Of a DNA stretch of 64,000 bases, positions 7,501 through 26,117 are shown one piece after another (the first letter of the stretch is position 1; each line of letters opens with the position of its first letter). Source of the DNA: Pseudomonadota bacterium (GTDB taxonomy: Bacteria > Bdellovibrionota > FAC87 > UBA2466). The notes beneath the pieces are model-generated. The model saw only the letters and a program-made list of their open reading frames with translations, ran no database searches and was not told the origin of the DNA. Position numbers and translations under genes: made by a program. The stretch spans positions 5,597 through 69,596 of the forward strand of contig JAYUGC010000066.1 of the NCBI GenBank assembly GCA_043767805.1. Direction: 5' to 3'.

Positions 7501-8514
7501 ATGAAAATCCACTCCCTTCTCTTCCTTCTCAGTCTCACCCTGTCCCATGCTCTCTACGGCTGGGGCGAGCGCGGGCACCACGTGCTTTGCGAAGTCGCGA
7601 CCCGGCTCGTGGCAAACCCGGAGCTTTCCGAGTTCCTGCAGGGGCGCGGCCATCAAGCGGGCCACGTCTGCAACATCCCGGACATCTTGTGGCGTAACTT
7701 GCCCGCGCAAGACAAAGCGGGAGAGAACAGTCACTTTCTCGATCCTGAGCCGTTCGGTTACACCCTCGATACCCTTCCCCTGGTGTTCGCCGACATCGCG
7801 ACGGCGAAAGGCGTAACGAGGGCTAAACTGGCCGTCGATCTCGGTTCGCTCTGGTGGAGAGCGGATCAGTTTTTTCGCCGGGCAAAAGCGAACGCGACTG
7901 CCATTGGACTTGCGACGCTTCCCACTTCCGCGCAGCTTCAAGACAACTCGCATCCTTACAACCAAGCGGTGTATCAGTTTTTTACCGACCTCTATCTCAT
8001 GGGGCACTTCGCGGGAGACGCCTCGATGCCGTATCACAACACGTCTGACTACGACGGCTGGCAGAAAGGCCGCGGCGGCATTCATTCTTACTTCGAAAGC
8101 GCCGCGGTGACGGCGCAACCTCTGCAGCTCGCCGAGTGGGTGTACCAGGCGGCCGTTCTCCTGCGCGCGCAAAGCGGAGTCTGGACGAGCGCTACCCAGA
8201 AGATCCGCGCGGTAAGCATTCAAGCCATGCGGGAGATGCCGGAGCTCGATGCGCTCGACGTGCTCGTTAAGCCTTCGGTCGCGGCGACGAAAACCGCCGC
8301 CAAGCGGCCGCCCGTCAAAGAAAGCGCGAAACGCTTCAAGTCTCTCCTCGTCAAAGAGCTCGCCCGCTCGGCTGCTTTACTCGCCGAAATGTGGGACGCC
8401 GCTTACGAGGCCGGAGGAAAACCGAACTTGAAAGTGTACCGCAGCTATCGGTACCCGCTTATGCCCGATTACGTGCCCCTGGATTACACCGCTTCGCGGA
8501 TGGGAGAAGAATGA
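7501..8514 (+). CDS. S1/P1 family zinc-dependent nuclease, secreted
   Basis: Start at 'MKIHSLLFLLSLTL' with a GGAGG RBS ('ggaggttccATG'). The mature N-terminus 'YGWGERGHHVLCEVA' matches the S1/P1 'WG..GH' zinc-ligand signature. Later His/Asp-rich segments ('HFAGDASMPYHNTSDYDGW') fit the family. Confidence 0.75.
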   Translation: MKIHSLLFLLSLTLSHALYGWGERGHHVLCEVATRLVANPELSEFLQGRGHQAGHVCNIPDILWRNLPAQDKAGENSHFLDPEPFGYTLDTLPLVFADIATAKGVTRAKLAVDLGSLWWRADQFFRRAKANATAIGLATLPTSAQLQDNSHPYNQAVYQFFTDLYLMGHFAGDASMPYHNTSDYDGWQKGRGGIHSYFESAAVTAQPLQLAEWVYQAAVLLRAQSGVWTSATQKIRAVSIQAMREMPELDALDVLVKPSVAATKTAAKRPPVKESAKRFKSLLVKELARSAALLAEMWDAAYEAGGKPNLKVYRSYRYPLMPDYVPLDYTASRMGEE

Positions 8515-9512
8515 GCGCCCCCACGCTGCAACCGTTTATCTTGGGCAGAGGCAACGCCGGTCAGGCCATGGCAAAGGCTCTCAGTCTCGTGAACTTCCTC
8601 GATACAGAACTCACGGTACTTCCCCCGGTTTGGGTGGAAAGGGGGCGGCCGCTCGCGGAACTTCCGAAAAGCGGCGCCTCCCGCCTACTCGCCGTCGCCA
8701 ACCCACATGGCTTGCACGCGCGCGCCCTCGTGGAGGCATCCAAAGCCGATTTCGAGGCCGTCGTTTGCGACAAACCCGCGGCGGTGAGCCACGAGGAAGT
8801 CGCGACGCTCAGAAAGATCGCCGGAGCGGTTTCCGTTTGTCACGGCTACCGGCAGACCTGGGGCCCGCGCTGGCTGAAGACGTGGGTCGACTCGGGAGAG
8901 CTTGGGCAGCTGATTGCCGTCGAAGGAAGGTACTGGCAAGCCTCGGCCGCGGCCAAAGCGCTCGCCGGCACGAAATCGGCGAACGCTTGGAAAAACGATC
9001 CGAGTCTGAGCGGTCAGTTCGATACGTTTCTCGATCTCGGCGCGCATTGGGTCGACCTGGTTCAGCACTTACTCGGCGAAAAGGCCGCGTCGGCGCGCGC
9101 TTGGCTTCATCATGCGAACGGCGAAGCGGCCCATCGGGACACGCACGTGCAACTCGAGATGAGTTTTTCGAACCGGCGCCGAGCGTGGGCGTCCCTTTCC
9201 AAGACGTTTCACGGCCAAGGCAATAACTTGGAGATCCACGTGCTGGGCGCGAAAAGCGCCGCGAGCTGGAGCTTCGAGCGGCCGGACGAGATCGTGGTGG
9301 CAAAGGGCGCCGAGCGGCACGTCCACGTTCGTAAGGATACGGCGCTCGGCCTCAAGCAGGCGCCTTTCCACGGAGCGGGTTGGCTCGACGGCTATACGGA
9401 AATTTTGCACCAAGCAGCGCGCCGTGCCGTCGGTCTTTCTGCTTTCTCGGTTCCTACCCTGAGCGAGCACCTCGACGCGGTCGACACTTTGCTCACGGCG
9501 GAAAGGGTTTGA
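8511..9512 (+). CDS. Gfo/Idh/MocA family NAD(P)-dependent oxidoreductase
   Basis: ATG at 8511 overlaps the nuclease stop (ATGA). N-terminal Rossmann segment 'FILGRGNAGQAMAKAL', then 'VVCDKPAAVSHEE' and the conserved 'E-K-P' region of the family. Confidence 0.7.
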   Translation: MSAPTLQPFILGRGNAGQAMAKALSLVNFLDTELTVLPPVWVERGRPLAELPKSGASRLLAVANPHGLHARALVEASKADFEAVVCDKPAAVSHEEVATLRKIAGAVSVCHGYRQTWGPRWLKTWVDSGELGQLIAVEGRYWQASAAAKALAGTKSANAWKNDPSLSGQFDTFLDLGAHWVDLVQHLLGEKAASARAWLHHANGEAAHRDTHVQLEMSFSNRRRAWASLSKTFHGQGNNLEIHVLGAKSAASWSFERPDEIVVAKGAERHVHVRKDTALGLKQAPFHGAGWLDGYTEILHQAARRAVGLSAFSVPTLSEHLDAVDTLLTAERV

Positions 9513-9545
9513 TCGCTTCCGTACGGTGGCCTAGACTCATGGGGC

Positions 9546-10178
9546 ATGGCATTGCGCCTTCTCCTCTGGCTCAGTTTGGCTTCGATTACCGCGCGGGGGG
9601 CGACCCACGTTGAGGCCGCCCTGTTGCGTCTAGACGGCTCTTACCCTTGGCGCCGGGTAGCGGAAGGCGTGCCCACGCTCGCTTATGGCGCGGTCACCGG
9701 TCTCGGCGGACTTTGGATCATGCTGGACTCTCGGCACCACAACGATACCGAGCGCACCGTCGGGGCGGTGGCTGGGGTTACCGGCGCCGTGATGCTGCTC
9801 GATAGTCTCGCGATGAGTTTCGGAAAGAGCTCTGGCGAGCATTTTATCGAGCACTACCGCGAAATGGGTCCGAACGGAGATGGGCTTTTCTCGACGAAAG
9901 ACGCTTACGCCGATGCCGCCCTCGCCCGTTTCGCAGAGACGAGCCGCTCCAGCCGGTACGTACGCGGGGCGTTGGCGCTCGTCAATGCGGCTCCTTACTT
10001 CTATTTTTATTTTTCCAATTCCCTCCGCTACCACAATGCCGTGTTTCTCGGCGGAGGCTTGGTCGCGATCGCGCTCTACCGCTTTCTCGTCCCGAGTCCA
10101 GAAGAAGGCGCGGCCTGTATTTTGATTGGCTCGAGTCCCGCGACGCCCACGAGCCTTGCCCTTCGGTGGAGCTTTTAG
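9546..10178 (+). CDS. hypothetical integral membrane protein
   Basis: 210 aa with several hydrophobic helices and a signal-like N-terminus. It lies immediately upstream of, and is contiguous with, the CDF transporter gene (stop at 10178, ATG at 10179). Confidence 0.45.
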   Translation: MALRLLLWLSLASITARGATHVEAALLRLDGSYPWRRVAEGVPTLAYGAVTGLGGLWIMLDSRHHNDTERTVGAVAGVTGAVMLLDSLAMSFGKSSGEHFIEHYREMGPNGDGLFSTKDAYADAALARFAETSRSSRYVRGALALVNAAPYFYFYFSNSLRYHNAVFLGGGLVAIALYRFLVPSPEEGAACILIGSSPATPTSLALRWSF

Positions 10179-11087
10179 ATGAGACACGGGCACGATCACC
10201 ATCACCACGACAGCGGCCCGTGCGCCCCGAAAAACACGCGCACTCTTTGGCTCGTTTTCTTTTTGTCCGGCGGCTACATGGTAGCCGAAGTGGTGGGCGG
10301 CCTTTGGACCGGCTCACTGGCCTTGCTCGCCGACGCGGCTCACATGGCGATCGACACGGGCGCCATCGCTCTCGGGCTTTTCGCCACTTGGATTGCGCAG
10401 CGCCCACCGACGGACGCAAAAACTTACGGTTACTACCGGGCGGAGATTCTGGCGGCTCTCCTTAACGGCTGCGTTCTCATCGGTGCGGCCGCCTGGATCA
10501 TCGCCGAGGCCCTTCCTCGTTTCAGCACTCCTCCGGAGATTAAAGGATCCGCGATGGCGATCATCGCCTCGGGCGGGCTCATCGTGAACGTCGTCTCGCT
10601 TTGGCTGATGCATGGAAGTGACAAGGATCATCTGAACATGCGTGGGGTTTGGCTTCACCTTGTCGGCGATACCTTGGGCTCGGTGGGCGCCATCACCGCG
10701 GCGGTGCTCATTTGGAAGTACGGCTGGAACCTCGCCGATCCGATCCTCTCCGTCGTCCTCACGTTACTCATCGTTTTCGGCGCCGGCCATTTACTCGTCG
10801 ACTGCGTGAACGTGCTTTTGGAAGGAGTTCCGAAGCACATCGATTTACCGGCGGTGAAACGCGACTTGGAAGCGGCGGGCGGTGTAAAAAATGTGCACGA
10901 CCTGCACGTTTGGCTTGTGACCAGCGGCCTCACCGCGCTCTCCGCGCACGTCACCGTAAACGAAGGCCGCGATCACTCCGAAGTCTTGCGCGTGCTCACC
11001 ACGCTCCTCCACGACCGTCACGGCATCGAGCACGTAACTTTACAACTCGAAGCCCCCACCTTCGCCCACCGCGACCTCCACGTCTAA
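10179..11087 (+). CDS. czcD: cation diffusion facilitator (CDF) family metal efflux transporter (CzcD/ZitB-like)
   Basis: His-rich N-terminus 'MRHGHDHHHHDS'. TM helices carry the metal-site motifs 'ALLADAAHMAIDTGA' and 'HLVGDTLGSVGAI'. The C-terminal cytoplasmic domain contains 'HDLHVW'. Confidence 0.85.
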   Translation: MRHGHDHHHHDSGPCAPKNTRTLWLVFFLSGGYMVAEVVGGLWTGSLALLADAAHMAIDTGAIALGLFATWIAQRPPTDAKTYGYYRAEILAALLNGCVLIGAAAWIIAEALPRFSTPPEIKGSAMAIIASGGLIVNVVSLWLMHGSDKDHLNMRGVWLHLVGDTLGSVGAITAAVLIWKYGWNLADPILSVVLTLLIVFGAGHLLVDCVNVLLEGVPKHIDLPAVKRDLEAAGGVKNVHDLHVWLVTSGLTALSAHVTVNEGRDHSEVLRVLTTLLHDRHGIEHVTLQLEAPTFAHRDLHV

Positions 11088-11118
11088 AAGGCCCCCCTCG
11101 CCGCGGCTACGCCGGCTC

Positions 11119-11147
11119 GCCAAAAGGTGTGTGGATACTTTTAGCCA
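11119..11147. repeat. left 29-bp inverted repeat of RAYT element
   Basis: Exact reverse complement of 11831-11859. Confidence 0.8.
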
Positions 11148-11182
11148 ACGACGGCACGATTCCTGCTTTCGAACGCCTCGCT

Positions 11183-11872
11183 ATGCCAAGAATGAAGCTT
11201 GTTCGAACCGCACGCGGCGTTTATCACATCACCAACAGAGTTAATCATAAACATGATTTTCCACTCCCACTCGAAGAGTGCTGGCCGATTTTCATGAATA
11301 TTTTAGAGAGGGTAACTGAGAACCTATCGGCGGAAATTCACGCTTTTGTCCTAATGTCTAACCACTATCATCTATTCCTAACGACCCCACTCTTCAACGT
11401 TGACGTAATAATGAAATATGTGAATCGGGAAGTAACCCGGGCGATCAGTCGGAAAACCGGTCTGATAAATCATATTTTCGGTGCGAGGTATCACCCCAGC
11501 CTTGTCTACAACCCACGAGACTTTGCTCACGTCCTGAAATACATATATAGAAATCCCGTGAAAGCAGGATTGGTAAAGAGCGTCGAACAATATCCTTTCT
11601 CCACCGTATCTAGCTTAGTTCACGCAAGTCGATTCGAATTTCTGAGAGCGAGCAAATTTTTCCCCGATGCCCTGTCCGGACTTCGCCCTGCGGAGAGATT
11701 ATTTTGGCTCAATGAGCCTCTGGCTAAAGAACAGGAAGAGCTGATTCGAAAGGCAAATAGGAGGCGAGAGTTTCAGTTCTCGAATCGCGTCGCCGAGCAG
11801 AAAGTGGCTGCCCAATTATCTCCGGCACCCTGGCTAAAAGTATCCACACACCTTTTGGCTAAGGGCTGCTGA
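11183..11872 (+). CDS. REP-associated tyrosine transposase (RAYT) / IS200-like Y1 HuH transposase
   Basis: 'ARGVYHITNRVNHKHDF' N-terminus, HuH motif 'VLMSNHYHLFL', and catalytic Tyr motif 'YIYRNPVKAGLV'. The ORF-track extension upstream (10649-11182) is Arg-rich and overlaps czcD, so it is not coding. The last 14 nt overlap the stop region of the convergent membrane-protein gene. Confidence 0.75.
   Translation: MPRMKLVRTARGVYHITNRVNHKHDFPLPLEECWPIFMNILERVTENLSAEIHAFVLMSNHYHLFLTTPLFNVDVIMKYVNREVTRAISRKTGLINHIFGARYHPSLVYNPRDFAHVLKYIYRNPVKAGLVKSVEQYPFSTVSSLVHASRFEFLRASKFFPDALSGLRPAERLFWLNEPLAKEQEELIRKANRRREFQFSNRVAEQKVAAQLSPAPWLKVSTHLLAKGC
11831..11859. repeat. right 29-bp inverted repeat of RAYT element
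   Basis: Exact reverse complement of 11119-11147. It ends precisely at the TAG stop of the minus-strand membrane-protein gene. Confidence 0.8.
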
Positions 11873-14585
11873 GGGTCCGGTCGGGGGTGGCGTTGGTGGT
11901 GGCGCCGATGAGGCGGATGGCGCGGATTTCTTGAGGGTGTAGGTAGGCGAGATAGAGGGTGTCGCCGGTGAATGCCTTCCACTGTAGGCAAGAACTCACT
12001 GGTACGCGGTAGGCGACCCTGCCCGCAGTCAGCGTTCTGAAATTAATGGCGCCCTTGTCGCTCGAAACGTTCAGGTGCCCGTCGGAGAGCGTGAACGCAT
12101 CCGGCACCACGCGCTCGAACTCGATTTCCAAAGCTTCCGCTTTGGAAGCCTTGTCGCGCGGAAGCTGAATCTCGGTCATCTGACCGTTGGCCGAGCTCGA
12201 TGTGCTGAATAAGACCGTATCGGCCCGTCCCGTTCGCCAGGCCAAACCATGAGCGAGCGCGAAACCCCAGTCGCAGCCTTCGAAAAAATTCGCCTGCCCG
12301 TTGTCGACTAGCCCGCGGACCGCCACCTTCTCGCGCCGCAGATCATCACGAATGAGAATCACGTGGTGCGAAAAGACCGCGAAAACGCGGTAGCTCTTCA
12401 AAACTTGCCGAGACAATTCGTAGTACCGCGTCTGCGCGGGCACTCCGTCAAAGCGAGCAAAGGGCGCGCTGCTCAAGTAAACGATCCACTCCGGCTTTTC
12501 CCGATCGAGCTCCTCGCCAATACGCCGCTGCTCTCTCGCGTTCGCGTACGGGTACTGATGCCGAAGCGGAACGGGCAGTTCCAAAAGATAATGAAATAGC
12601 GCGGGCTCGTTGGTGAAGTCGAAAACCTTCTCGCCCGCGAGCTTATGCGTGACAAAGAAATCCCGAAGCTCTCGTACGATTCTCAGAGAATCCTTACCGA
12701 GCTCTCCGTAACCCCACCTCGACAAGGACGAGCGAACCGCAGCGGGTTTAGCGTACCGCGCGGGCAGCGATTCGAAGTGCCACCACACGGATCGGGAAAG
12801 CGGAATGAGCAATACCGCCATGAGCGCGAGCCCCATGGGCTGCAAACCCCGGCCGCGGTACTCGGCCGGAAGCCGATGCTCCCACTGCCGATCGACCCAA
12901 GCCACGCCTTCCGCCATCATCCAGTAAACCAGAGGCAAGGCGAGCGAGACGTGGGCGAGGATGTGCTCGTCCGCGCGCGCTAAGAACTTCCGGTAGTAGA
13001 GAATAGCGAAAACGTTCCAGCCGAACATCACCGCGTCGAGCGGCAAAAGTTTCCCTGCGCGCACCCGGAAAGCGAGAAACAGCAGAGACGAGAAATACAC
13101 TATCCACGGAAAAAGCACCGCGAGGGTGAACCAGTTCGTGATTTTCCAAGGGATCGGAATGCCGACCGCGTAGATGTGTCCCGCCGCCAAATTCACGTAG
13201 CAGCTGATGTAAGCGCCCAGCGCGCCGAACACGGCGAGAAACGCCAGCCAGCCGACGAGAAACAAAGTTCCCCCGGCGAGTCCCGCTTTGGTGATCCGTA
13301 ACGCTTTGAACCAACGCTCGGACGGAATGCGATTGAAGGCTTCAAACCCGAAGAATCCACAGAAGAGGCCGAACGGCACGAAGAGGGCTTCGGGTGTCGC
13401 CACTACGAGCGCGATCGCACCGGCGCCCGTAAACGCCGCGAGCCTCGCCGAGCGGCGAGCTAGAGCAAGCGTCGCCAGGAAAAAAAGCGGGTAGAGAAAG
13501 AGGAACCGAAAGTTGAACCCGTCAAAAACAATGGGCCAAACCCAAGGCAAGAGCACCGCGGTCAGGGTCAGAAGCCAAGGGCGGCGGCGGAAGAAGAGGC
13601 AAAGCAAAACGTACTGCGAAAGAAAAAAGAGCGGCTTGGCGATGAGCGACACGCCCGCGTCCGCGCCCCAAACCGTATCTTCAAAGAAGCGATGCCCAAC
13701 CCAGGCAAAGATCGGATCTTGCAGAAGCCCGTGCTGGAACAGAAAGTCCCGCCAGGGGAACCCGCCCTGACGAAGCAAGAGGCTCGTAACCAGGGACTCG
13801 CCGTCATGATGAAGATGCAGCCAGGTGCGCGCCACCGGAGTTTCCGCCGTCAGCACGAAAATGAAGACCGGAAAAACCAGACCGAAGAAAACTTTGCGCT
13901 CGAGGGCCGCCGCGCTGGCCGCGTCCCTGACGCGGCCCAATCGGCGCGAAATCCATACGGCAAGACCCACGGTAGCCGCCGCCGCGAGCCAGAAGGGAAA
14001 CCAGGGATGCCCGTCCGTGCCCACGCGAGTGGCCTGCGAAGCTCCATAGAGCACGAAGGGGATGGCCGCCGAGAAAAGCGCATTCACCCAAGACGCGCCG
14101 ATTTCGTTGCCGTCGGGCACTCTCCGACGAATCCAGAGCGCCGCCCCATAGACGAGTCCCCCGTACAGCACGGCGACGAGTAAAGTCTGCGCGAAAAAAT
14201 TGCCGTGGCCGTAACAGACGGTGCCCAACCCAAAGACGAAGCCGGTGAACCAAAGCCGCATCATTCTGCCGACGCGAGACGCCCAGGTGGTCGGTGAGAC
14301 CTTGGGCTCGGGAACATCCTTCAGCCAGGACTCAAACCAGACCGGCGTGAACTGCTCCCAGGAAAAGCGGTGGCGCCTGAGCCGCAAGAAAATCCAGGCG
14401 GCAAACAGCGGCATGCCGATCGCTTCCAATAGGTACGCTTTGAAATAGAGATCGATGTTGAAATTGGCAAAAAGCGGATATCCCATCAGGTCCGTGCTGG
14501 GATTAAACCCACGCGGCGTGACGAGCCAGACCAAGGCCATCGTCACTTGGGCCATGACTAAGGAGAGCACCAGGCGAAGCGTCAC
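11859..14585 (-). CDS. large polytopic membrane protein (908 aa) with C-terminal soluble domain; GT-C-like architecture (unassigned)
   Basis: About 550 aa of repeated hydrophobic helices are followed by a ~350-aa hydrophilic C-terminal region. It is the last gene of an overlapping 5-gene minus-strand operon (its start overlaps the stop of the FAD oxidoreductase gene). No catalytic motif recognised. Confidence 0.55.
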   Translation of the reverse strand: MTLRLVLSLVMAQVTMALVWLVTPRGFNPSTDLMGYPLFANFNIDLYFKAYLLEAIGMPLFAAWIFLRLRRHRFSWEQFTPVWFESWLKDVPEPKVSPTTWASRVGRMMRLWFTGFVFGLGTVCYGHGNFFAQTLLVAVLYGGLVYGAALWIRRRVPDGNEIGASWVNALFSAAIPFVLYGASQATRVGTDGHPWFPFWLAAAATVGLAVWISRRLGRVRDAASAAALERKVFFGLVFPVFIFVLTAETPVARTWLHLHHDGESLVTSLLLRQGGFPWRDFLFQHGLLQDPIFAWVGHRFFEDTVWGADAGVSLIAKPLFFLSQYVLLCLFFRRRPWLLTLTAVLLPWVWPIVFDGFNFRFLFLYPLFFLATLALARRSARLAAFTGAGAIALVVATPEALFVPFGLFCGFFGFEAFNRIPSERWFKALRITKAGLAGGTLFLVGWLAFLAVFGALGAYISCYVNLAAGHIYAVGIPIPWKITNWFTLAVLFPWIVYFSSLLFLAFRVRAGKLLPLDAVMFGWNVFAILYYRKFLARADEHILAHVSLALPLVYWMMAEGVAWVDRQWEHRLPAEYRGRGLQPMGLALMAVLLIPLSRSVWWHFESLPARYAKPAAVRSSLSRWGYGELGKDSLRIVRELRDFFVTHKLAGEKVFDFTNEPALFHYLLELPVPLRHQYPYANAREQRRIGEELDREKPEWIVYLSSAPFARFDGVPAQTRYYELSRQVLKSYRVFAVFSHHVILIRDDLRREKVAVRGLVDNGQANFFEGCDWGFALAHGLAWRTGRADTVLFSTSSSANGQMTEIQLPRDKASKAEALEIEFERVVPDAFTLSDGHLNVSSDKGAINFRTLTAGRVAYRVPVSSCLQWKAFTGDTLYLAYLHPQEIRAIRLIGATTNATPDRTLSSP

Positions 14586-15943
14586 GCGTTACCCTCCGCG
14601 GAATGTCCGAGGTAAAAGTTGACCCGCGTTTCCAGATCCGCTTCCCGATCGAGAAGCAGCGACTCGGCTTTGAAGACTCCTTGGATCACATCGTCGATAT
14701 TACTATGAGTGAAGAGCCCTTGGCGCCCCAAAGACAAGAGCCGAGGCAGATAAGCCATGCGCCGGGCCGCCTCCCCCCACTGATCCGCGTGCCCTTTGAG
14801 GTAAACCGGGTAAACCACACTCTGATTGACGTCGAGCCGCTCGTGAATCTTCAAAGGATCGAGCCAGCCCAAAGCCACGAGGGACGCGACGGCCTTATCG
14901 CCTTTAAGAGCAAGCTGCGCCGGATGCGGCACGTTGTACTCGAGACAAAGCACGTTCTTGCCTTCGGCCAGACAATCGCGGCTGCAATACGAAAAATCCG
15001 TCACGCGATTAAACGCCACTTCCGGGTCGGCGGTAAATGTAAACGGGCCCGAAAGGCGCACGTCCTCCGGCACGCTTAGAAACGTAAAGCCCAGGCCGCG
15101 GTATTTCAGCCGGCCCGTCTCGAGACCCGCGAGATCGCCGTGTAGGCGAGACAGCGTCGACACCGGGATGGTGCTGGCCAAAGTGTGCGCCCGTAACCGC
15201 CGCCCATCCACGTCAACGACGACCTCTCCCGGCGTCTCGCGGATGGCGGTCACCTGCGCGCTCAAGCGCAAAGTCACGCCCCGTGAGCGCAGCCGCTCCA
15301 GAATCTTCTCCGCGATCTGATAAACGCCGAGCCGCGGATAGTAGTGGGCGGTAGCCAAAGGATCTTCCGCGTGGCGAGCTTTGCGGCCGAGGCCAAAAAG
15401 GCGCGAAAGCTTGAGAGGAGGCAAGCGATCCTTTGCGAGACGCCCGTCGAGCTCCTTGGACGGAACGGCCCAAATCTTTTCGGTCAGCGGGCCAAAGAAA
15501 CTCTCAAAGAGAGGACCGCCGTATTGCGAGCGCGCCCAGTCCTCGAAGGTTTTCACTTCTCCGGCGGGAAGCAGCCGTGCCAGGCCGAAACCGATTCCCG
15601 ATTTGAGCACTTCTCCCGGAGGGAGCCGTTTCAAAATCTCCAAGGGGTTGACCGGGTAGGACAGGACCTGCCCGCGAAAGAGCACCTTCATCCGAAACGT
15701 GCGATCCAAAAGATCGTCGCCCAAGAGATCGCGGTAGTAAGCCAGCACCTCGGGCCACTTTGCCCGTACGTTATGAGGCCCGAGATCGACACGCGAGCCA
15801 TCCAGATGCACGCCGCGCGCGAGACCGCCCACTTCGGACTCCTTCTCCAGCACGGTCACTTGCACGCCCCGGGAAGACAGGCGATCGGCCAGAGTCAGTC
15901 CCGCGATGCCGGCGCCCAGCACGATGCAGGAGTCCATCTTCAA
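14582..15943 (-). CDS. FAD/NAD(P)-binding oxidoreductase (amine-oxidase / UDP-galactopyranose-mutase-like fold)
   Basis: N-terminal dinucleotide-binding motif 'IVLGAGIAGLTLADRLSSRGVQVTVLEKESEVGG', then 'GPHNV'. 453 aa. Its stop overlaps the start of the membrane-protein gene. Confidence 0.65.
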   Translation of the reverse strand: MKMDSCIVLGAGIAGLTLADRLSSRGVQVTVLEKESEVGGLARGVHLDGSRVDLGPHNVRAKWPEVLAYYRDLLGDDLLDRTFRMKVLFRGQVLSYPVNPLEILKRLPPGEVLKSGIGFGLARLLPAGEVKTFEDWARSQYGGPLFESFFGPLTEKIWAVPSKELDGRLAKDRLPPLKLSRLFGLGRKARHAEDPLATAHYYPRLGVYQIAEKILERLRSRGVTLRLSAQVTAIRETPGEVVVDVDGRRLRAHTLASTIPVSTLSRLHGDLAGLETGRLKYRGLGFTFLSVPEDVRLSGPFTFTADPEVAFNRVTDFSYCSRDCLAEGKNVLCLEYNVPHPAQLALKGDKAVASLVALGWLDPLKIHERLDVNQSVVYPVYLKGHADQWGEAARRMAYLPRLLSLGRQGLFTHSNIDDVIQGVFKAESLLLDREADLETRVNFYLGHSAEGNA

Positions 15944-16905
15944 GAACGCGTCTCCGGAGCCTGATAGACGGGAAAATAGTTCCGGTCTCGAATCCCGCGC
16001 CGGCTACAAGCGGCGCCGTACGCTTTATCGTCGAAAACTCGCGTCCAGCGGCCAGCGGTTAGCCGCTCACCGCCAAAACGGCTCTTGAATTTCTCGAGGC
16101 CGTCTCCTTCGACGGAGCCGCCGCCCAGATTCACCCAAGGCAAACCGAGCGCCTTTAGGCGGAGCATCCCTTCCCATAAGAGCGCGCCCGTCGCGCGGCG
16201 GCCCTCGGTCGTCGAAGCTTGAAAGAAGTACTCGGCTCCCCAGGCGCTGGCTCCAAATCCGGCGATGGAGACGACGCGACCCGCGGTGTCCCGGGCTCCC
16301 AGCCACAAAAATCCCTCCATTTTGGAATAAAGGGAAAGCGTCTCGTCGGAAAAGCGATAGACGGGCGCCGCGCCTACGCGCTCGCAGGTGGAGCGGTAGA
16401 GCGCCGGGAAATCCGAGGCGAGTGCGGCGCGATCGTCTTCCAAAGTCCAGCCGGCGGCGAGCGCCGTATCGGAGCGGACGGATTTACCCTCCAGCCGATG
16501 CCATAGCTCCGATTCGCTCTTGGCCAGATCGACGACAAAAACCGTTCGGGCGGGAGAGGCGAAGGGAAAGCGTTCCCAAGAGCAAAATTGCGGATGCAGA
16601 GCTAGATATCCCGCCACCCATTTCTTCTTGCTCGCGTAGCGAAGGAGCCCTTCGAGAAACTCACCTTCGGCGACGACTCCCGCGGGACCGGCAAATCCAT
16701 AAGGAGTGGTGACATCAATCCAAGCCTCGTACCGCCGCTCGAGTAAAACGACGGCGGACGAGCCATCGGTAAGGAGAAAAGGCGCGGCGCCGCTTCGGGC
16801 GAGCGCCTGGGCATGATCCCAGCGGTGACAGAAGCCATGAGGAATCGTGGCGAGCGAGCTCTCCCACAAGTCCCGGCGACTCAAATCGACGCGCTTCAAC
16901 ACCAC
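15940..16905 (-). CDS. FemAB-family / GNAT-fold (Acetyltransf_6-like) acyl- or aminoacyl-transferase
   Basis: 321 aa. The C-terminal 'GDGLEKFKSRFGGERL' resembles the FemAB / BioF2-like GNAT C-terminal signature. Overall spacing fits a duplicated GNAT fold. The ORF overlaps both neighbouring genes. Confidence 0.5.
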   Translation of the reverse strand: MVLKRVDLSRRDLWESSLATIPHGFCHRWDHAQALARSGAAPFLLTDGSSAVVLLERRYEAWIDVTTPYGFAGPAGVVAEGEFLEGLLRYASKKKWVAGYLALHPQFCSWERFPFASPARTVFVVDLAKSESELWHRLEGKSVRSDTALAAGWTLEDDRAALASDFPALYRSTCERVGAAPVYRFSDETLSLYSKMEGFLWLGARDTAGRVVSIAGFGASAWGAEYFFQASTTEGRRATGALLWEGMLRLKALGLPWVNLGGGSVEGDGLEKFKSRFGGERLTAGRWTRVFDDKAYGAACSRRGIRDRNYFPVYQAPETRS

Positions 16906-17702
16906 TCTCCCTCGAGCCGGACGATCCCATCCGCGGTGGCGAACGCAAAGCCCTGGTCCTGTCCCAAAATCGTGCCGGGCGTCGCCTTGGGGGCCTCGCC
17001 TTCGCGAAGTATCTCACACCGGCTCGCCTTGAAGCGGCCCTTCTCGGTGTCGGCGAAGGCCGAAGGCATCGGAGGAGGCAAAGCCCGGATGAGATCCCGG
17101 ATTTTGCGCGCCGGCCACTTAAAGGAAAAGGCGCCGTCTTCGGGAAGCCGGCGAGGCGCGTAAGTGCTCGTCCCCGTTTGCGGCACGCCTTCGGGCAGTC
17201 CGCCGTCCAGACCACGAAAGAAGCTCACCGCCATTTCGGCGGAAAGCGCGTCCAGCCGGCGAGTGAGCGACCAGAGGTCATCGCCCGCCTCGATGCCGAT
17301 GGCCTTTTGCGCGAGAATGTTGCCGGTATCCACGCCGCTATCGATCCGGTGGATCGTCACGCCGGTTTCCGTCTCGCCCGCGATGAGCGCCCAGGAGACC
17401 GGGTGCACGCCTCGGTAAGCCGGCAGAAGGCTCGAGTGTAGATTCACGGCCCCCCACCTCGCCTTTTCAAACACGGCGGATTTCAGCAGCTCGTACCGGC
17501 AAGTCAGAATGAGATCCAGATCGTCCCATTGTCCGGAGTCCGCCACCAGAGCCGAAGGACAAAGTGCTTTTAACACCGCCAGCTCGTCGGGAACCGATGC
17601 CGACACCACCGACGGCACGAAACCCGCCTCCACTAGTGCTGCGAGCACCGCAATCCCTTGAGGCTTTCCACCGGCAAACGCCCATTTGAAGTCATTCTTC
17701 AT
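16896..17702 (-). CDS. formyltransferase, Fmt/ArnA-N-like (N10-formyl-THF dependent) with C-terminal domain
   Basis: Formyltransferase signature 'VNLHSSLLPAYRGVHPVSWALIAGETETGVTIHRIDSGVDTGNI' carries the catalytic His and Asp. The N-terminus 'MKNDFKWAFAGGKPQGIAVLAAL' resembles the Fmt start. I chose the start at 17702; an alternative is 17747. About 100 aa follow the core, as in Fmt. Confidence 0.7.
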   Translation of the reverse strand: MKNDFKWAFAGGKPQGIAVLAALVEAGFVPSVVSASVPDELAVLKALCPSALVADSGQWDDLDLILTCRYELLKSAVFEKARWGAVNLHSSLLPAYRGVHPVSWALIAGETETGVTIHRIDSGVDTGNILAQKAIGIEAGDDLWSLTRRLDALSAEMAVSFFRGLDGGLPEGVPQTGTSTYAPRRLPEDGAFSFKWPARKIRDLIRALPPPMPSAFADTEKGRFKASRCEILREGEAPKATPGTILGQDQGFAFATADGIVRLEGEWC

Positions 17703-19173
17703 TTTCAAACACTCCGAAGCGAGAGCGCACGAGAGGCGCGTCGACACCGTAAAGCAACGGCTCGAGCATCACTTGAGGCACCTTGTTGTTCAGATCCACG
17801 TGGTACTCGAGCCAAAACCAGAAGCGCCCCATGTCGAGGCGGTAGGGAACGTGCTGTTCGGCGATGGCCGACCACTGCAGGATGTTCCACATGAGTTTGC
17901 CTTCGAGAACCGCGGCCCAGACGCCCTCTTCCACATGCAGCGTCTGATCGACGGGGCCCTCGTCGTCCCAAAGGATGCGAAAGCCCTGCTCCAGGTCGGC
18001 CGCTAGCACGAAAGCAAAACCGCTGTGGGGCCCTTCGACCGCGATCCGAAAGCGCGCCTCGAAGAACAGGTAATCCCGGGTAATCCACTTTTCGACCAGC
18101 GCCGTACGTTCCCACGTGCGCTCGCGGAGCGCGAGCCGGGAGCTGCCGTCGATCCAGCGGCGCAGACGCTCCACTTTGGGCCGAAAACGGAGCTGGAGAC
18201 CGGCTATTTCGTCCAAATAGTTGTCCCAATCCACTTCGGGATGGCGGCGGACATGCCCACGCTCGGCGCTCCAAGTGTCTCCCGGCAAGAACTCGATGAT
18301 TTCGGGTTCCCGCCCGTGGTAATCGCGGGCCACCATTTCGGAAAAAATCTTCGGCGTCGCCCGATTCGCCCAGTTGTTGTGGAAGAACTTCGGGTCGAGC
18401 CAGCAAAAATCGCCCGCGATGGGGGCAATGCGTTTCGGGCGAAGACCGTCCAGGACCCGGCGCTGCTCCGCGAACCCGTGCACGCGTTTCCGAGCTTCTC
18501 GCGTCATTTCTTCCGGCGTGAACTTAAAGCAGCCGGGGTACATCGTCACGCCGGCCGTCTGCACCAGCGCCAAATCGATGTGGGGAAACCTGCCCCTTAT
18601 TTTCTGACACAGATCGAGGTCAGTGAGGTTGTCGTTCAAGTTGATTAGAGTGCAACCGGGCGCCTCCACCACGAACGCGCAGTTCTCCCAGTCGTGATCG
18701 CGGCTGACCGCGGCCGGAAGGAACGTCAAAGGCGTCTTACCGCCCAAAAAGTAACGCTCCCACGGGCGAAATTTGCGGATTTTCGAAAAGCCCATGAGCC
18801 GGAGCGTCCGCTCGATGGTCTGCGCCCTCAAGGAAGGGTGATCGGAGTACTCGGGCAACAAGACTTGCACGTCCCGGCTGAAACGATCGAGCGATGGGAC
18901 GTGAAAATGGTCCTCGTGGGAGTGAGTCAGCAAAAGATAATCGACGTCGCGCGTGACTTCCTCGGCGTCCAAAACCGCCGCCGGGAATTTCCAGGTCGTG
19001 AAATTATAGACGGGCTCGTTCAAAATCCATGGATCGCAAACCAAGGTTCCAAACTCGCCTTCGAGGCGCAAACAGGCGTGTGAGACGAACGTGACTTCGA
19101 GCGATCCGATGGCTTTTTTCCCCCTGCCCGAGACTAGCAGAATGTTTTCGGAAGAAATGGAGGGGTGCGGCAT
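17692..19173 (-). CDS. MBL-fold metallo-hydrolase (493 aa)
   Basis: Canonical 'LLLTHSHEDHF' (HxHxDH) metal-binding motif, plus a long C-terminal extension. It is the first gene of the 5-gene minus-strand operon. Confidence 0.7.
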   Translation of the reverse strand: MPHPSISSENILLVSGRGKKAIGSLEVTFVSHACLRLEGEFGTLVCDPWILNEPVYNFTTWKFPAAVLDAEEVTRDVDYLLLTHSHEDHFHVPSLDRFSRDVQVLLPEYSDHPSLRAQTIERTLRLMGFSKIRKFRPWERYFLGGKTPLTFLPAAVSRDHDWENCAFVVEAPGCTLINLNDNLTDLDLCQKIRGRFPHIDLALVQTAGVTMYPGCFKFTPEEMTREARKRVHGFAEQRRVLDGLRPKRIAPIAGDFCWLDPKFFHNNWANRATPKIFSEMVARDYHGREPEIIEFLPGDTWSAERGHVRRHPEVDWDNYLDEIAGLQLRFRPKVERLRRWIDGSSRLALRERTWERTALVEKWITRDYLFFEARFRIAVEGPHSGFAFVLAADLEQGFRILWDDEGPVDQTLHVEEGVWAAVLEGKLMWNILQWSAIAEQHVPYRLDMGRFWFWLEYHVDLNNKVPQVMLEPLLYGVDAPLVRSRFGVFENEE

Positions 19174-19267
19174 CCGACGAGAGAAGAAAATTCGGCGCCG
19201 AAAACGAAGAAACCCCTTGTAATCGCTAGGTGGATTTAATATTTAACGCGAGAAAAGGAAAACCTAA

Positions 19268-19726
19268 ATGGCTCATGTAGACGATTACCGCGGTTGGCCC
19301 CATTTGATGGCTTCTGGTTTTGATTGCGACCGGCATGCTCTCATGTCGTACGACAAAATCTATACCTTCTTGAAGGAATTGCCGGACGCCATCGGCATGC
19401 AGAGGATGGGCCTTCCCATCGTCTACAAGGTGAACGCCACCGATCATCCCGACATCGGGATCACCGGCACGACGATCATCGCGACGAGCCACATCAGCAT
19501 CCACACCTTCCCTAAGGGACAGAAGGATGGACGCCGTAAGCCCCGTGGCATCGAGCGCCGGGTCTTCAAGCCCTTCTTCACCTTCGACTGTTATAGCTGC
19601 CGCGATTTCGATCCGGACAAAGTCTATGACATGTTGAAGAAGGCCTTCCGTCCTCGGACCCTCGAGACGGCGCTCGTCTACCGCTTGCGCGAAGACGAAC
19701 AGCTCATCGAAGTCGAAGATTACTGA
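19268..19726 (+). CDS. speH: S-adenosylmethionine decarboxylase-like proenzyme (SpeH-type, pyruvoyl-dependent)
   Basis: 'TIIATSHISIHTFPK' matches the AdoMetDC self-cleavage/pyruvoyl site pattern (E/T-S-H-I-S-I-H-T-[WF]-P-E). 152 aa is the typical small-type size. Confidence 0.65.
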   Translation: MAHVDDYRGWPHLMASGFDCDRHALMSYDKIYTFLKELPDAIGMQRMGLPIVYKVNATDHPDIGITGTTIIATSHISIHTFPKGQKDGRRKPRGIERRVFKPFFTFDCYSCRDFDPDKVYDMLKKAFRPRTLETALVYRLREDEQLIEVEDY

Positions 19727-24745: not shown

Positions 24746-24763
24746 GGGGAAAACCTACTCCAT

Positions 24764-26050: not shown

Positions 26051-26117
26051 GGCAAAGATTATACACGGACTTAAGTCAGAGACACGTCCGAGCGATCCAA
26101 GTGTTAACTTGGAAAGT

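What the first reader, a model, noticed from the sequence alone, without database searches (positions are those of the whole stretch)
11859..19173. Five-gene overlapping operon pairing an Fmt-like formyltransferase with a FemAB/GNAT-like transferase, plus MBL hydrolase, FAD oxidoreductase and a 908-aa polytopic membrane protein
**What the sequence shows.** All five ORFs are on the minus strand. Successive stop/start overlaps of 4, 11, 10 and 4 nt mean they are almost certainly co-translated. The formyltransferase has the 'HSSLLPAYRG...DTG' catalytic signature plus an Fmt-like C-terminal domain. The FemAB-like protein ends in 'LEKFKSRFGG'.

**What is established.** Fmt acts on aminoacyl-tRNA, whereas ArnA-N and sugar N-formyltransferases act on nucleotide amino-sugars. 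FemAB-fold enzymes (FemXAB, MprF-type aminoacyl-PG synthases, L/F-transferase relatives) use aminoacyl-tRNA or acyl-CoA donors.

**What is inferred.** The operon probably builds a formylated, aminoacylated (or N-acyl) envelope molecule. This would be a lipid or glycan, inserted or flipped by the large GT-C-like membrane protein. The MBL enzyme (a NAPE-PLD-like fold) and the FAD enzyme would supply or trim a precursor. The exact chemistry is not predictable from sequence, and I do not recognise this gene combination as a described pathway.
Basis: partly seen in the sequence, partly recalled or inferred. Interest (0 to 1): 0.65.

Follow-up and report, generated by a model that had tools for sequence, protein, structure and literature searches.

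The report
Amino-sugar side-chain tailoring operon with GT-C transferase
A predatory-bacterium relative (Pseudobdellovibrionaceae) carries a five-gene operon that joins a widespread but undescribed three-enzyme cassette, probably for decorating amino sugars, to a membrane glycosyltransferase that would attach the product to the cell envelope.

Summary
The five translationally coupled minus-strand genes are real.

- The formyltransferase is a two-domain Fmt/ArnA-class enzyme, not PurN/PurU.
- The "FemAB-like" protein has a Fem fold. Its closest solved relative by sequence is Sbb17, an aminoacyl-tRNA-dependent enzyme crystallised with the amino-sugar compound streptothrisamine.
- The 908-aa protein has a GT-C fold.

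**Corrections**
- The "MBL hydrolase" is a homologue of the NamH/CMAH nucleotide-sugar N-acetyl hydroxylases, without their Rieske domain. Its nearest solved relatives are CmlA-type diiron hydroxylases, not NAPE-PLD.
- The likely target is an amino sugar, not a lipid.
- MBL, Fem-like and formyltransferase genes recur together in dozens of distant genomes. They sit beside DegT, RmlA/B, WbqC, PhyH, TPR-GT41 and Wzt genes.
- The formyltransferase alternates with a small GNAT.
- The FAD enzyme and the GT-C join the cassette only in this window and one related MAG.

**Proposed mechanism (inferred)**
Aminoacyl-tRNA-dependent aminoacylation of a sugar amine, then hydroxylation and N-formyl capping, then transfer from a polyprenyl-phosphate carrier by the GT-C enzyme.

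No description of the cassette was found. I rate it a new variant of a known kind, of moderate to high interest.

The parts
17692..19173 (-). Gene 1: a 493-aa MBL-fold protein. It is a homologue of the NamH/CMAH catalytic domain but has no Rieske domain, and is a probable non-haem iron hydroxylase. It carries an HxHxDH motif (H84, H86, D88, H89) and has invariant D161, E163 and D181.
   Evidence: Pfam finds Lactamase_B_2/_3 on residues 26-227 only. A family profile against the PDB gives a diiron monooxygenase (8a90) at E 1.7e-8 and CmlA at 2.3e-7, while hydrolases score >=0.02 and NAPE-PLD 0.3. All 10 remote homologues sampled (the five with a 105-141-residue N-terminal extension plus five longer proteins) carry a Rieske domain. 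It is either N-terminal or C-terminal, the C-terminal form in 3 of 5 cases with an SCP2_Rv3818 domain. hhalign gives 99.6% probability to both architectures. The family is 44-63% identical across phyla.
16896..17702 (-). Gene 2: a 268-aa two-domain formyltransferase of the Fmt/ArnA class. An alternative GTG start lies at 17747. It is the probable N-formyl capping enzyme.
   Evidence: Pfam finds Formyl_trans_N plus Formyl_trans_C. NCBIfam scores are ArnA 126.6, PRK06988 117.6, Fmt 116.8 and PurN 63.6 bits, all below their cut-offs. The best PDB hits are ArnA, GDP-perosamine N-formyltransferase and Fmt. It lacks the Fmt loop-1 motif 'QPDxxxGRG' and the 'QRPGK' tail. Orthologues at 39-51% identity sit between the MBL and Fem genes in six distinct distant loci (L066, L068/L069, L070, L071, L110); two more loci (L083, L094) hold a 28-30% homologue there.
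15940..16905 (-). Gene 3: a 321-aa Fem-fold (tandem GNAT) transferase, probably aminoacyl-tRNA-dependent, acting on an amino sugar. F273-K274 and the GGG..D..FK..FGG motif are conserved, as is a C-terminal FPxY motif.
14582..15943 (-). Gene 4: a 453-aa FAD-dependent oxidoreductase (451 aa if it starts at the ATG at 15937). It belongs to the PRK07208 / amine-oxidase superfamily and is distantly related to UDP-galactopyranose mutase. Its role is unresolved.
   Evidence: Pfam finds Amino_oxidase and NAD_binding_8. NCBIfam PRK07208.1-4 scores 201 bits over residues 2-436, below its cut-off of 389. The best PDB hits are UDP-galactopyranose mutases at E 3e-10 to 1e-7. It is next to the cassette only in the window and in L001/L011.
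11859..14585 (-). Gene 5: a 908-aa polytopic GT-C-fold glycosyltransferase. About 600 residues form the helical membrane domain and about 300 form a C-terminal alpha/beta domain that ends in a beta-sandwich. D32 lies in the first loop motif TD(I/V)VG(Y/F)P. Other conserved features are invariant FPWRD (276-280), D290, D539 and FDF.N.P (655-661), and conserved C771/C866.
19174..19267 (.). A 94-bp divergent intergenic region between the operon and a SpeD-like AdoMet decarboxylase gene (19268-19726, + strand). It is the presumed promoter region.
   Evidence: The position is read from the sequence. The AdoMet_dc gene is identified by Pfam. The same divergent arrangement occurs in L001. No sigma-70 consensus was found there, so the promoter is inferred and not shown.

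Best explanation
The operon fuses two modules.

**Module 1 (genes 1-3)** is a conserved tailoring cassette for the N-linked side chain of an amino sugar.
- The Fem-fold enzyme takes an amino acid from aminoacyl-tRNA and puts it on the amino group of a nucleotide-linked, or possibly polyprenyl-linked, amino sugar. Orf11 does this to streptothrisamine in the BD-12 pathway.
- The MBL-fold protein hydroxylates that N-acyl or aminoacyl side chain. It is a Rieske-less relative of NamH/CMAH and of CmlA-type beta-hydroxylases.
- The ArnA-class formyltransferase caps the free alpha-amine with a formyl group. In other genomes a small GNAT takes its place and would give an acetyl cap.

**Module 2 (genes 4-5)** is specific to this Pseudobdellovibrionaceae lineage.
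- The flavoenzyme is UDP-galactopyranose-mutase-like and would remodel or oxidise the sugar or its carrier.
- The GT-C enzyme would transfer the finished sugar from a polyprenyl-phosphate carrier to an envelope acceptor on the periplasmic side. This parallels ArnA/ArnT in lipid A aminoarabinosylation.

**Shown:** operon structure, family and fold assignments, and conserved co-localisation of MBL, FT and Fem inside amino-sugar clusters.

**Inferred:** the substrates, the order of the steps, the donor (aminoacyl-tRNA), the role of the FAD enzyme and the acceptor.
For: - **Operon.** The genes are tightly coupled. The five-gene synteny recurs in a second MAG.
- **Fem-like protein.** It has a Fem fold. 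Its profile hits Sbb17, an aminoacyl-tRNA-dependent enzyme solved with the amino-sugar compound streptothrisamine, at E 1e-11 with the FK..FGG motif aligned. Family members hit PF13480 and PF02388. [quoted passage not shown]
- **MBL protein.** Its profile puts diiron monooxygenases first in the PDB. It is homologous to Rieske-MBL and MBL-SCP2_Rv3818-Rieske proteins. NamH (Rv3818) has this UlaG-MBL plus Rieske make-up (PMC10050696).
- **Co-localisation.** A Fem homologue lies downstream of the MBL gene in 28 of 35 orthologous loci, with the FT between them in 8 of those 28 loci. In the one locus examined (L076) of the group without a detected Fem homologue, a PF13480 protein and an FT are present in another order.
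- **Neighbours.** In 20 loci they include DegT (12), GT41 (10), PhyH (7), NTP_transferase (6), WbqC (6), GT2 (6) and a 4,6-dehydratase (5). Individual loci add flagellar genes, FleQ or Wzt.
- **FT versus GNAT.** They are mutually exclusive: 7 FT loci have no GNAT and 6 GNAT loci have no FT. This fits alternative caps on the same amine.
- **FT is not Fmt.** It lacks Fmt's loop-1 motif and tail.
- **GT-C.** The fold and the loop-1 Asp are present. Homologues lie beside a GT2 of the polyprenyl-phosphate-sugar synthase type and an epimerase/dehydratase.
- **Natural products.** N-formyl-L-alanyl amino sugars exist in nature, for example in Vibrio anguillarum O2 (PMC10059132).
Against: - No biochemical data exist for any member of the cassette.
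- The 64-kb window holds no DegT, RmlA/B, WbqC, GT2, GT41, methyltransferase or GNAT homologue. The amino-sugar substrate and the polyprenyl-phosphate-sugar synthase must therefore be encoded elsewhere, or the target differs in this organism.
- The window Fem-like protein itself reaches no Pfam threshold, and its model is only moderately confident (pLDDT 65).
- PF13480 proteins are not all tRNA-dependent.
- The MBL protein has no Rieske domain and no evident electron donor. A hydrolytic role is not excluded.
- FAD and GT-C are linked to the cassette in only two closely related MAGs, which could reflect shared ancestry more than function.
Confidence: 0.55

Rival explanations
1. The operon modifies peptidoglycan precursors. 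The NamH-like protein would hydroxylate UDP-MurNAc or a related N-acetyl group. The Fem-like protein would add a side-chain or cross-bridge amino acid to the UDP-MurNAc-peptide or lipid II, as FemX does. The formyltransferase would cap that amino acid, and the membrane protein would act on the lipid-linked precursor.
Against: In the loci with long flanks examined, the cassette sits among DegT, RmlA/B, WbqC, GT41 or Wzt genes and no mur or fem cell-wall genes were seen. By sequence profile the family is nearer to Sbb17, the enzyme solved with an amino-sugar compound, than to FemX or FemA, which do not appear at E<=1. GT-C enzymes are not known to act in peptidoglycan stem-peptide synthesis.
Confidence: 0.12
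2. The operon makes or tailors a secreted small molecule, such as an aminoglycoside-, nucleoside- or streptothricin-like natural product, and not an envelope glycan. It could work together with the nearby PKS and AMP-binding genes.
For: The closest solved relatives of the Fem-like family (Sbb17) and of the MBL domain (CmlA-type hydroxylases) come from antibiotic pathways. An AMP-binding enzyme (24764-26050) and large PKS-like ORFs lie 5-12 kb upstream, in both the window and L001.
Against: Six intervening genes on both strands separate the operon from the PKS region. A GT-C enzyme implies a lipid-linked donor and an extracytoplasmic acceptor. In other genomes the cassette lies among O-antigen and protein-glycosylation genes (GT41, Wzt, flagellar genes), not in biosynthetic gene clusters.
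Confidence: 0.1
3. The Fem-like enzyme would aminoacylate a membrane lipid in the manner of MprF. The MBL enzyme would be a NAPE-PLD-like phospholipase that supplies or trims the lipid. The large membrane protein would flip the product.
Against: MprF ranks below FemX, Sbb17 and FemA. NAPE-PLD scores E 0.3 against the MBL profile, while diiron monooxygenases score 1e-8. The membrane protein matches GT-C glycosyltransferases, not the MprF flippase. No lipid-metabolism genes accompany the cassette in the loci examined.
Confidence: 0.05
4. Only genes 1-3 work together. The FAD enzyme and the GT-C protein form an unrelated envelope function that happens to share a transcript with them in this lineage.
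For: FAD and GT-C homologues are never next to the cassette outside the two related MAGs. GT-C homologues elsewhere have their own partners: GT2, epimerase, methyltransferases and transaldolase.
Against: The 4-nt start/stop overlap at the FAD/GT-C junction, the overlap or 2-nt gap at Fem/FAD and the absence of terminator signals argue for co-expression. The arrangement is kept at 62-77% protein identity. Both modules concern sugars.
Confidence: 0.15

Closest known systems
NamH (Rv3818, UDP-N-acetylmuramic acid hydroxylase) and CMAH (CMP-Neu5Ac hydroxylase)
   Same: They share a homologous UlaG-type MBL-fold domain. hhalign gives 99.6% probability over 224 to 408 columns, with the HxHxDHFH motif conserved. 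Both are found with sugar-metabolism genes.
   Different: The window protein has no Rieske [2Fe-2S] domain (no CxH...CxxH motif). Its substrate is unknown, and it pairs with a Fem-like enzyme. Whether it hydroxylates an N-acetyl group or an aminoacyl side chain has not been tested.
CmlA-family non-haem diiron beta-hydroxylases (PDB 4jo0, 8a90)
   Same: They are the nearest solved relatives of the MBL domain (E 1.7e-8 and 2.3e-7). HxHxDH and D181 align with the CmlA 'HNHQDH' and 'AADS' positions. That these are diiron ligands is my recollection of the CmlA structure.
   Different: CmlA acts on amino acids tethered to NRPS carrier proteins and has a distinct N-terminal domain. No NRPS is present here. 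The equivalents of the CmlA carboxylate ligands are only roughly aligned.
Sbb17 (PDB 9wqw-9wqy) and Orf11 of the BD-12 pathway, plus FemX/FemA (FemABX family)
   Different: Identity to the solved structures is only 12-20%. The window protein is below the Pfam thresholds. The donor and acceptor are untested. The setting is a glycan or envelope operon, not an antibiotic cluster or the cell-wall pathway.
Arn pathway (ArnA formyltransferase ... ArnT GT-C) for lipid A aminoarabinosylation
   Same: One pathway combines an ArnA-like N-formyltransferase acting on an amino sugar with a GT-C enzyme that uses a polyprenyl-phosphate sugar. ArnA is the best NCBIfam and PDB hit for the FT, and ArnT is among the GT-C matches.
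GT-C glycosyltransferases (PMT, STT3/PglB/AglB, AftA/AftB, ALG3/9/12, PimE)
   Different: No Pfam GT-C family matches. The family is small: 12 hits among 5.8 billion proteins and 55 loci in the genome collection, all of them MAGs. The donor and acceptor are unknown.

Membership tests
FemABX / PF13480 tandem-GNAT aminoacyl transferases | Two GNAT-like domains forming the Fem fold | tested here: met
FemABX / PF13480 tandem-GNAT aminoacyl transferases | Passes the Pfam PF02388 or PF13480 threshold | tested here: not met
   The window protein scores only E 0.11 (11.7 bits against a cut-off of 24) for PF02388 and has no PF13480 hit. Among 27 family members, 12 hit PF13480 and 8 hit PF02388 at E<=0.01. 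Membership therefore rests on transitive homology.
FemABX / PF13480 tandem-GNAT aminoacyl transferases | Conserved Phe-Lys catalytic motif before FGG | tested here: met
   K274 is invariant and F273 is conserved in the consensus of the 27 sequences. The motif aligns with 'RFKLGFGGE' of Sbb17. Its equivalence to FemX F304/K305 rests on my memory of the FemX literature.
FemABX / PF13480 tandem-GNAT aminoacyl transferases | Uses aminoacyl-tRNA as the donor | not testable with these tools
   This needs an enzyme assay.
NamH/CMAH nucleotide-sugar N-acetyl hydroxylases | Homologous UlaG-type MBL-fold catalytic domain | tested here: met
   hhalign gives 99.6% probability to an MBL-SCP2_Rv3818-Rieske protein (P0285) and to a Rieske-MBL protein (P0244).
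NamH/CMAH nucleotide-sugar N-acetyl hydroxylases | Fused Rieske [2Fe-2S] domain | tested here: not met
   Neither the window protein nor the listed homologues has a Pfam Rieske hit, and the sequence has no CxH...CxxH motif. I therefore do not file it as NamH or CMAH, only as a Rieske-less relative.
NamH/CMAH nucleotide-sugar N-acetyl hydroxylases | O2-dependent hydroxylation of an N-acetyl group on a nucleotide sugar | not testable with these tools
   This needs biochemistry.
Methionyl-tRNA formyltransferase (Fmt) | Passes the TIGR00460 equivalog cut-off | tested here: not met
   It scores 116.8 bits against a cut-off of 201.5.
Methionyl-tRNA formyltransferase (Fmt) | Loop-1 insertion (QPDxxxGRG) and C-terminal QxxGK tail, which I recall as tRNA-contacting elements | tested here: not met
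   Both are gapped or absent in the window FT and in the cassette FTs. The loop-1 motif is present in the one full-length Fmt from the fmt-rsmB loci (L054), and the tail in all six Fmt sequences aligned.
ArnA / sugar N-formyltransferases | Catalytic Asn-His-Asp core with the SLLP motif and a Formyl_trans_C subdomain | tested here: met
   'NLHSSLLPAYRG' and 'DTG' are present. Pfam finds the N- and C-terminal domains. ArnA is the best NCBIfam and PDB hit.
ArnA / sugar N-formyltransferases | ArnA equivalog score and a fused decarboxylase/dehydrogenase domain | tested here: not met
   It scores 126.6 bits against a cut-off of 777. The protein has only 268-283 residues.
GT-C glycosyltransferases | GT-C membrane fold | tested here: met
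GT-C glycosyltransferases | Conserved acidic residue in the first extracytoplasmic loop | tested here: met
   D32, in the motif TD(I/V)VG(Y/F)P just after TM1, is conserved in 10 of 11 sequences. The topology is inferred and not measured.
GT-C glycosyltransferases | Uses a polyprenyl-phosphate-linked sugar donor | not testable with these tools
   The only support is indirect. A GT2 with GT2_TM_C lies next to distant homologues.
UDP-galactopyranose mutase | Passes TIGR00031 or Pfam GLF | tested here: not met
   TIGR00031 scores 30.2 bits against a cut-off of 303.75, and there is no PF03275 hit. It shows only distant similarity to solved UGMs, E 3e-10.

The most novel reading that the evidence does not exclude
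The pair of a Rieske-less NamH-like hydroxylase and a Fem-like transferase, with an alternative formyl or acetyl cap, is a widespread and so far undescribed route. By this route bacteria would use aminoacyl-tRNA to build hydroxylated, N-capped aminoacyl side chains on deoxy-amino sugars of flagellin, protein and O-antigen glycans. In Pseudobdellovibrionaceae the cassette has been recruited to a new GT-C family that installs this sugar on the envelope.
Probability: 0.35. Interest if true: 0.75.

Novelty: new variant of a known kind. Interest (0 to 1): 0.6.

Why it matters
Many bacterial O-antigens and flagellin glycans carry amino sugars N-acylated with amino acids, such as N-acetylglycyl and N-formylalanyl groups. 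To my knowledge the enzymes that build these side chains are mostly unassigned.

If the cassette does what is proposed, it would give a gene marker for such structures across Myxococcota, Acidobacteriota, Proteobacteria and Bdellovibrionota. It would extend tRNA-dependent, Fem-type chemistry from cell walls and antibiotics to surface glycans. It would also define a Rieske-less branch of the NamH/CMAH hydroxylases.

The 908-aa protein defines a GT-C family with no Pfam model. It occurs in uncultured Actinomycetota, Dormibacterota, Myxococcota and Bdellovibrionota.

All of these claims can be tested with standard enzymology and glycan mass spectrometry. Pleionea sp. CnH1-48 is not labelled as a MAG in the hit list and may be a cultured host of the cassette.

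Tried and rejected
1. **Formyltransferase next to the membrane protein in other phyla.** tblastn found FT homologues 2.5-3.5 kb from distant membrane-protein homologues in about 20 Thermoanaerobaculia/Acidobacteriota loci. In the locus examined (L041), this is the housekeeping fmt followed by rsmB, so it is a lineage synteny and not a functional link. I rejected it as evidence.
2. **Direct Pfam and NCBIfam classification.** It gave nothing for the Fem-like and membrane proteins.
3. **Single-sequence PDB search.** It found nothing for the Fem-like protein.
4. **Look-up of the window's own MBL and membrane proteins in the contig index.** Both failed. The source organism was inferred from the nearest MAG instead.
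5. **Promoter and terminator scan of the operon.** Nothing exceeded the shuffled expectation.
6. **AFDB fold search.** The library was not available.
7. **NAPE-PLD-like or UlaG-like hydrolase reading of the MBL protein.** I considered it and ranked it low on profile evidence.
8. **Search of the 64-kb window for amino-sugar genes.** No DegT, RmlA/B, WbqC, GT41, methyltransferase or GNAT partner was found.
9. **Literature searches.** Searches for the gene combination (formyltransferase + FemAB + flagellin glycosylation, WbqC, UlaG + glycosylation island) found no description of the cassette.


Full report
**1. Observation**

The region 11859-19173 holds five consecutive minus-strand ORFs:
- an MBL-fold protein (17692-19173, 493 aa);
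- a formyltransferase (16896-17702 from the ATG; the longest ORF starts at GTG 17747);
- a Fem-like protein (15940-16905, 321 aa);
- an FAD enzyme (14582-15943, 453 aa);
- a polytopic membrane protein (11859-14585, 908 aa).

Reading the junctions gives overlaps of 11, 10 (or 7), 4 (or a 2-nt gap) and 4 nt. GGAG-type ribosome-binding sites precede the FT and membrane-protein starts. Gene calls on three independent Logan contigs of the same organism use FT 268 aa, Fem 320 aa and FAD 451 aa. No terminator-like signal above the shuffled background lies inside the operon. G+C content is unremarkable.

**2. Organism and close synteny**

The nearest relative in the genome collection is an uncultured Pseudobdellovibrionaceae MAG (CAZZHG01, GCA_964653655.1). 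It has the same five genes in the same order at 62-77% protein identity. Its flanks are also the same: a divergent SpeD-like AdoMet decarboxylase on one side and a cation-efflux gene and a GFO/IDH/MocA oxidoreductase on the other. This is shared ancestry, so it is not independent evidence of a functional link.

**3. Formyltransferase**

Pfam finds Formyl_trans_N plus Formyl_trans_C. NCBIfam ranks ArnA (126.6 bits), PRK06988 (117.6) and Fmt (116.8) far above PurN (63.6) and PurU. None reaches its cut-off. In the PDB, ArnA, the GDP-perosamine N-formyltransferase and Fmt are nearly equidistant.

I aligned the protein with genuine Fmt proteins taken from fmt-rsmB loci. The window protein and its cassette orthologues lack the Fmt loop-1 motif (QPDxxxGRG) and the C-terminal QRPGK tail. 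Both are tRNA-contacting elements of Fmt, as far as I recall. I therefore treat the protein as an ArnA-like, small-molecule N-formyltransferase and not as an Fmt orthologue.

**4. Fem-like protein**

Alone it reaches no Pfam threshold (FemAB E 0.11) and has no PDB hit by sequence. Only five homologues turned up in the word-indexed search of 5.8 billion proteins.

- I built a 27-member family from loci found later. Of these, 12 hit PF13480 and 8 hit PF02388.
- The family profile finds Sbb17 at E 1.2e-11, with the FK..FGG motif aligned. Sbb17 is deposited as an aminoacyl-tRNA-dependent peptide synthase in complex with streptothrisamine.
- A functional precedent is Orf11 of the BD-12 pathway. It transfers glycine from Gly-tRNA onto streptothrisamine (PMC12945691).

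**5. MBL protein**

Pfam sees only a Lactamase_B_2/_3 domain in residues 26-227. The family is large and well conserved, at 44-63% identity over 95% of the length. Named members are from Myxococcota, Blastocatellia, Alpha- and Gammaproteobacteria and Deltaproteobacteria.

- A 24-sequence profile against the PDB puts a non-haem diiron monooxygenase (8a90, E 1.7e-8) and CmlA (2.3e-7) first. Metal-dependent hydrolases score >=0.02 and NAPE-PLD 0.3.
- The HxHxDH motif and D181 align with CmlA's 'HNHQDH' and 'AADS'. As far as I recall the CmlA structure, these are diiron ligands.
- A full HMMER scan of 1.84 billion representatives gave 3148 hits.
- All ten remote hits I sampled (E 1e-24 to 1e-36) carry a Rieske domain. 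I chose the five with N-terminal extensions plus five longer proteins. The Rieske domain is either N-terminal, as I recall for CMAH, or C-terminal. Three of the five C-terminal cases also have an SCP2_Rv3818 domain, the NamH layout.
- hhalign gives 99.6% probability to both types, and the match extends over 408 columns for the Rieske-N type.
- NamH (Rv3818) is described as UlaG-MBL plus Rieske, and it hydroxylates the N-acetyl group of muramic acid (PMC10050696).

The window protein has no Rieske domain. I conclude that it is a Rieske-less relative of the NamH/CMAH/CmlA oxygenases and not a NAPE-PLD-like hydrolase. A hydrolytic role cannot be formally excluded.

**6. The conserved cassette**

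Contexts of distant MBL homologues show MBL -> FT -> Fem-like in the same order in two unrelated genomes. In the third, Pleionea sp. CnH1-48, the order is MBL -> Fem-like. They lie next to DegT, WbqC, TylF-type and other methyltransferases, PhyH, RmlA/RmlB-type genes, TPR-GT41 proteins, flagellar genes (FlgD, hook, FliS) or FleQ.

A metagenome scan returned 79 loci.
- Among MBL orthologues (>=43% identity) with enough downstream sequence, 28 of 35 have a Fem homologue downstream. In 8 of those 28 loci the FT lies between them.
- In the one 'negative' locus I examined (L076), a PF13480 protein, a single-domain formyltransferase, two PhyH proteins, DegT, Wzt and an MBOAT are present, only rearranged.
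- Pfam counts over 134 neighbouring ORFs from 20 loci are: DegT 12, GT41 10, PhyH 7, NTP_transferase 6, WbqC 6, GT2 6, methyltransferases 6, 4,6-dehydratase 5 and GNAT 5.
- In a presence/absence matrix, the FT and a small GNAT are mutually exclusive: 7 loci have the FT and no GNAT, and 6 have the GNAT and no FT.
- Distant Fem homologues found directly also sit in glycan clusters, with WbqC, DegT, glycosyltransferases, ABC-2, GLF, Bac_transf and ATP-grasp genes.
- FAD and membrane-protein homologues never occur in these loci.

For the five-gene set it holds, apart from one close relative.

**7. Membrane protein**

It has no family hit. The word-indexed search found only 12 homologues, and the genome collection holds 55 loci, all of them MAGs.

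- D32, in a TD(I/V)VG(Y/F)P motif directly after the first helix, is conserved in 10 of 11 sequences. FPWRD, D290, D539 and FDF.N.P are invariant.
- Homologues at 28-29% identity lie divergent to an NAD-dependent epimerase/dehydratase, a GT2 with the GT2_TM_C domain (the polyprenyl-phosphate-sugar synthase type, as far as I recall), two methyltransferases and a heptosyltransferase.
- In 21 further loci the neighbours are enriched in methyltransferases (12), epimerase/dehydratases (11), transaldolase (11), GT2 (7), GHMP kinase (5) and HAD (5).

**8. FAD enzyme**

It is a full-length but sub-threshold member of the PRK07208 group (201 bits), with Amino_oxidase and NAD_binding_8 domains. Its closest solved relatives are UDP-galactopyranose mutases (E 3e-10 to 1e-7). 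It fails the UGM equivalog and has no GLF domain. Its role stays open. It could contract a sugar ring, oxidise the sugar or its carrier, or supply electrons to the Rieske-less hydroxylase.

**9. Mechanism**

The pattern is a constant MBL-Fem pairing, alternative FT or GNAT genes, and amino-sugar biosynthetic neighbours. The most economical reading has four steps:
1. The Fem enzyme aminoacylates the sugar amine from aminoacyl-tRNA.
2. The FT, or a GNAT in other genomes, caps the new alpha-amine.
3. The MBL oxygenase hydroxylates the side chain.
4. In this lineage, a GT-C enzyme moves the finished sugar from a polyprenyl-phosphate carrier to an envelope acceptor.

N-formyl-alanyl amino sugars are known natural structures (PMC10059132). 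The family assignments and the gene linkage are shown here. The substrates, the order of steps, the donor and the acceptor are inferred.

The main weakness concerns this particular organism. No amino-sugar synthesis genes and no GT2 lie within the 64-kb window.

**10. Rivals**

- Peptidoglycan-precursor modification is suggested by the NamH and FemX analogies but is not supported by any neighbourhood.
- A secreted natural product is suggested by the nearby PKS and AMP-binding genes and by the antibiotic-pathway relatives, but it is hard to reconcile with a GT-C enzyme and with the glycan contexts.
- An aminoacyl-lipid pathway has little support.
- Modules 1 and 2 may be functionally independent.

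**11. Novelty**

Four literature searches for the gene combination or cassette found no description of it. Each enzyme belongs to a known superfamily, and the chemistry proposed has precedents. I therefore class it as a new variant of a known kind: an undescribed but widespread glycan-tailoring cassette, a Rieske-less NamH-like branch, and a GT-C family without a Pfam model.

Noticed in passing
window 11183-11872 (+): An IS200-like Y1 transposase ORF (Pfam Y1_Tnp, E 1.4e-5) lies convergent to the GT-C gene, and its 3' end overlaps that gene's 3' end by 14 nt. The roughly 770-bp segment that holds it is absent from the related MAG, where the GT-C gene abuts the cation-efflux gene directly (L001).
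   Followed up: partly
window 19268-19726 (+): A SpeD-like S-adenosylmethionine decarboxylase gene (Pfam AdoMet_dc, E 1e-18) is transcribed divergently from the operon across a 94-bp spacer. The same arrangement occurs in the related MAG. No link to the operon is established.
   Followed up: partly
window 23669-31648 (-): An old-yellow-enzyme-type FMN oxidoreductase (23669-24745), an AMP-binding enzyme (24764-26050) and two very large ORFs (26118-29684 and 29597-31648) follow one another. In the related MAG the corresponding region carries PKS domains (Acyl_transf_1, KR, PS-DH). This may be a polyketide locus 5-12 kb from the operon.
   Followed up: partly
L031-L065 (Thermoanaerobaculia/Acidobacteriota loci), e.g. 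L041 9191-12349 and 13669-15835: Roughly 1050-aa membrane proteins match only residues ~220-740 of the GT-C protein. In the locus examined (L041) the gene lies about 1.3 kb upstream of the housekeeping fmt-rsmB pair. This is a conserved synteny in that class and it mimics a formyltransferase link.
   Followed up: yes
L012-L030 (Actinomycetota, Dormibacterota and Myxococcota MAG loci), around position 10001: Full-length homologues of the GT-C protein are flanked repeatedly by transaldolase, GHMP kinase, HAD phosphatase, nucleotidyltransferase, epimerase/dehydratase and methyltransferase genes. This set is reminiscent of an activated-heptose or similar sugar pathway.
   Followed up: partly
L100, L102, L106-L129 (metagenome loci): A second group of MBL proteins, only 26-33% identical to the window protein, has no detectable Fem-like or formyltransferase gene next to it. 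This is probably a paralogous subfamily with a different partner or role.
   Followed up: no
L067 (Pleionea sp. CnH1-48, JAMXSB010000011.1) 8001-11491: This record is not labelled as a MAG and may come from a cultured isolate. It carries MBL -> Fem-like -> methyltransferase -> small GNAT, next to RmlA/RmlB/DegT-type genes and the flagellar regulator FleQ. It could be a practical organism for testing the cassette.
   Followed up: partly
window 12001-16000: The plus strand shows a strong positive AT skew (0.19-0.29) over the GT-C and FAD genes, well above the rest of the window. It probably reflects the T-rich coding strand of the hydrophobic membrane protein.
   Followed up: no
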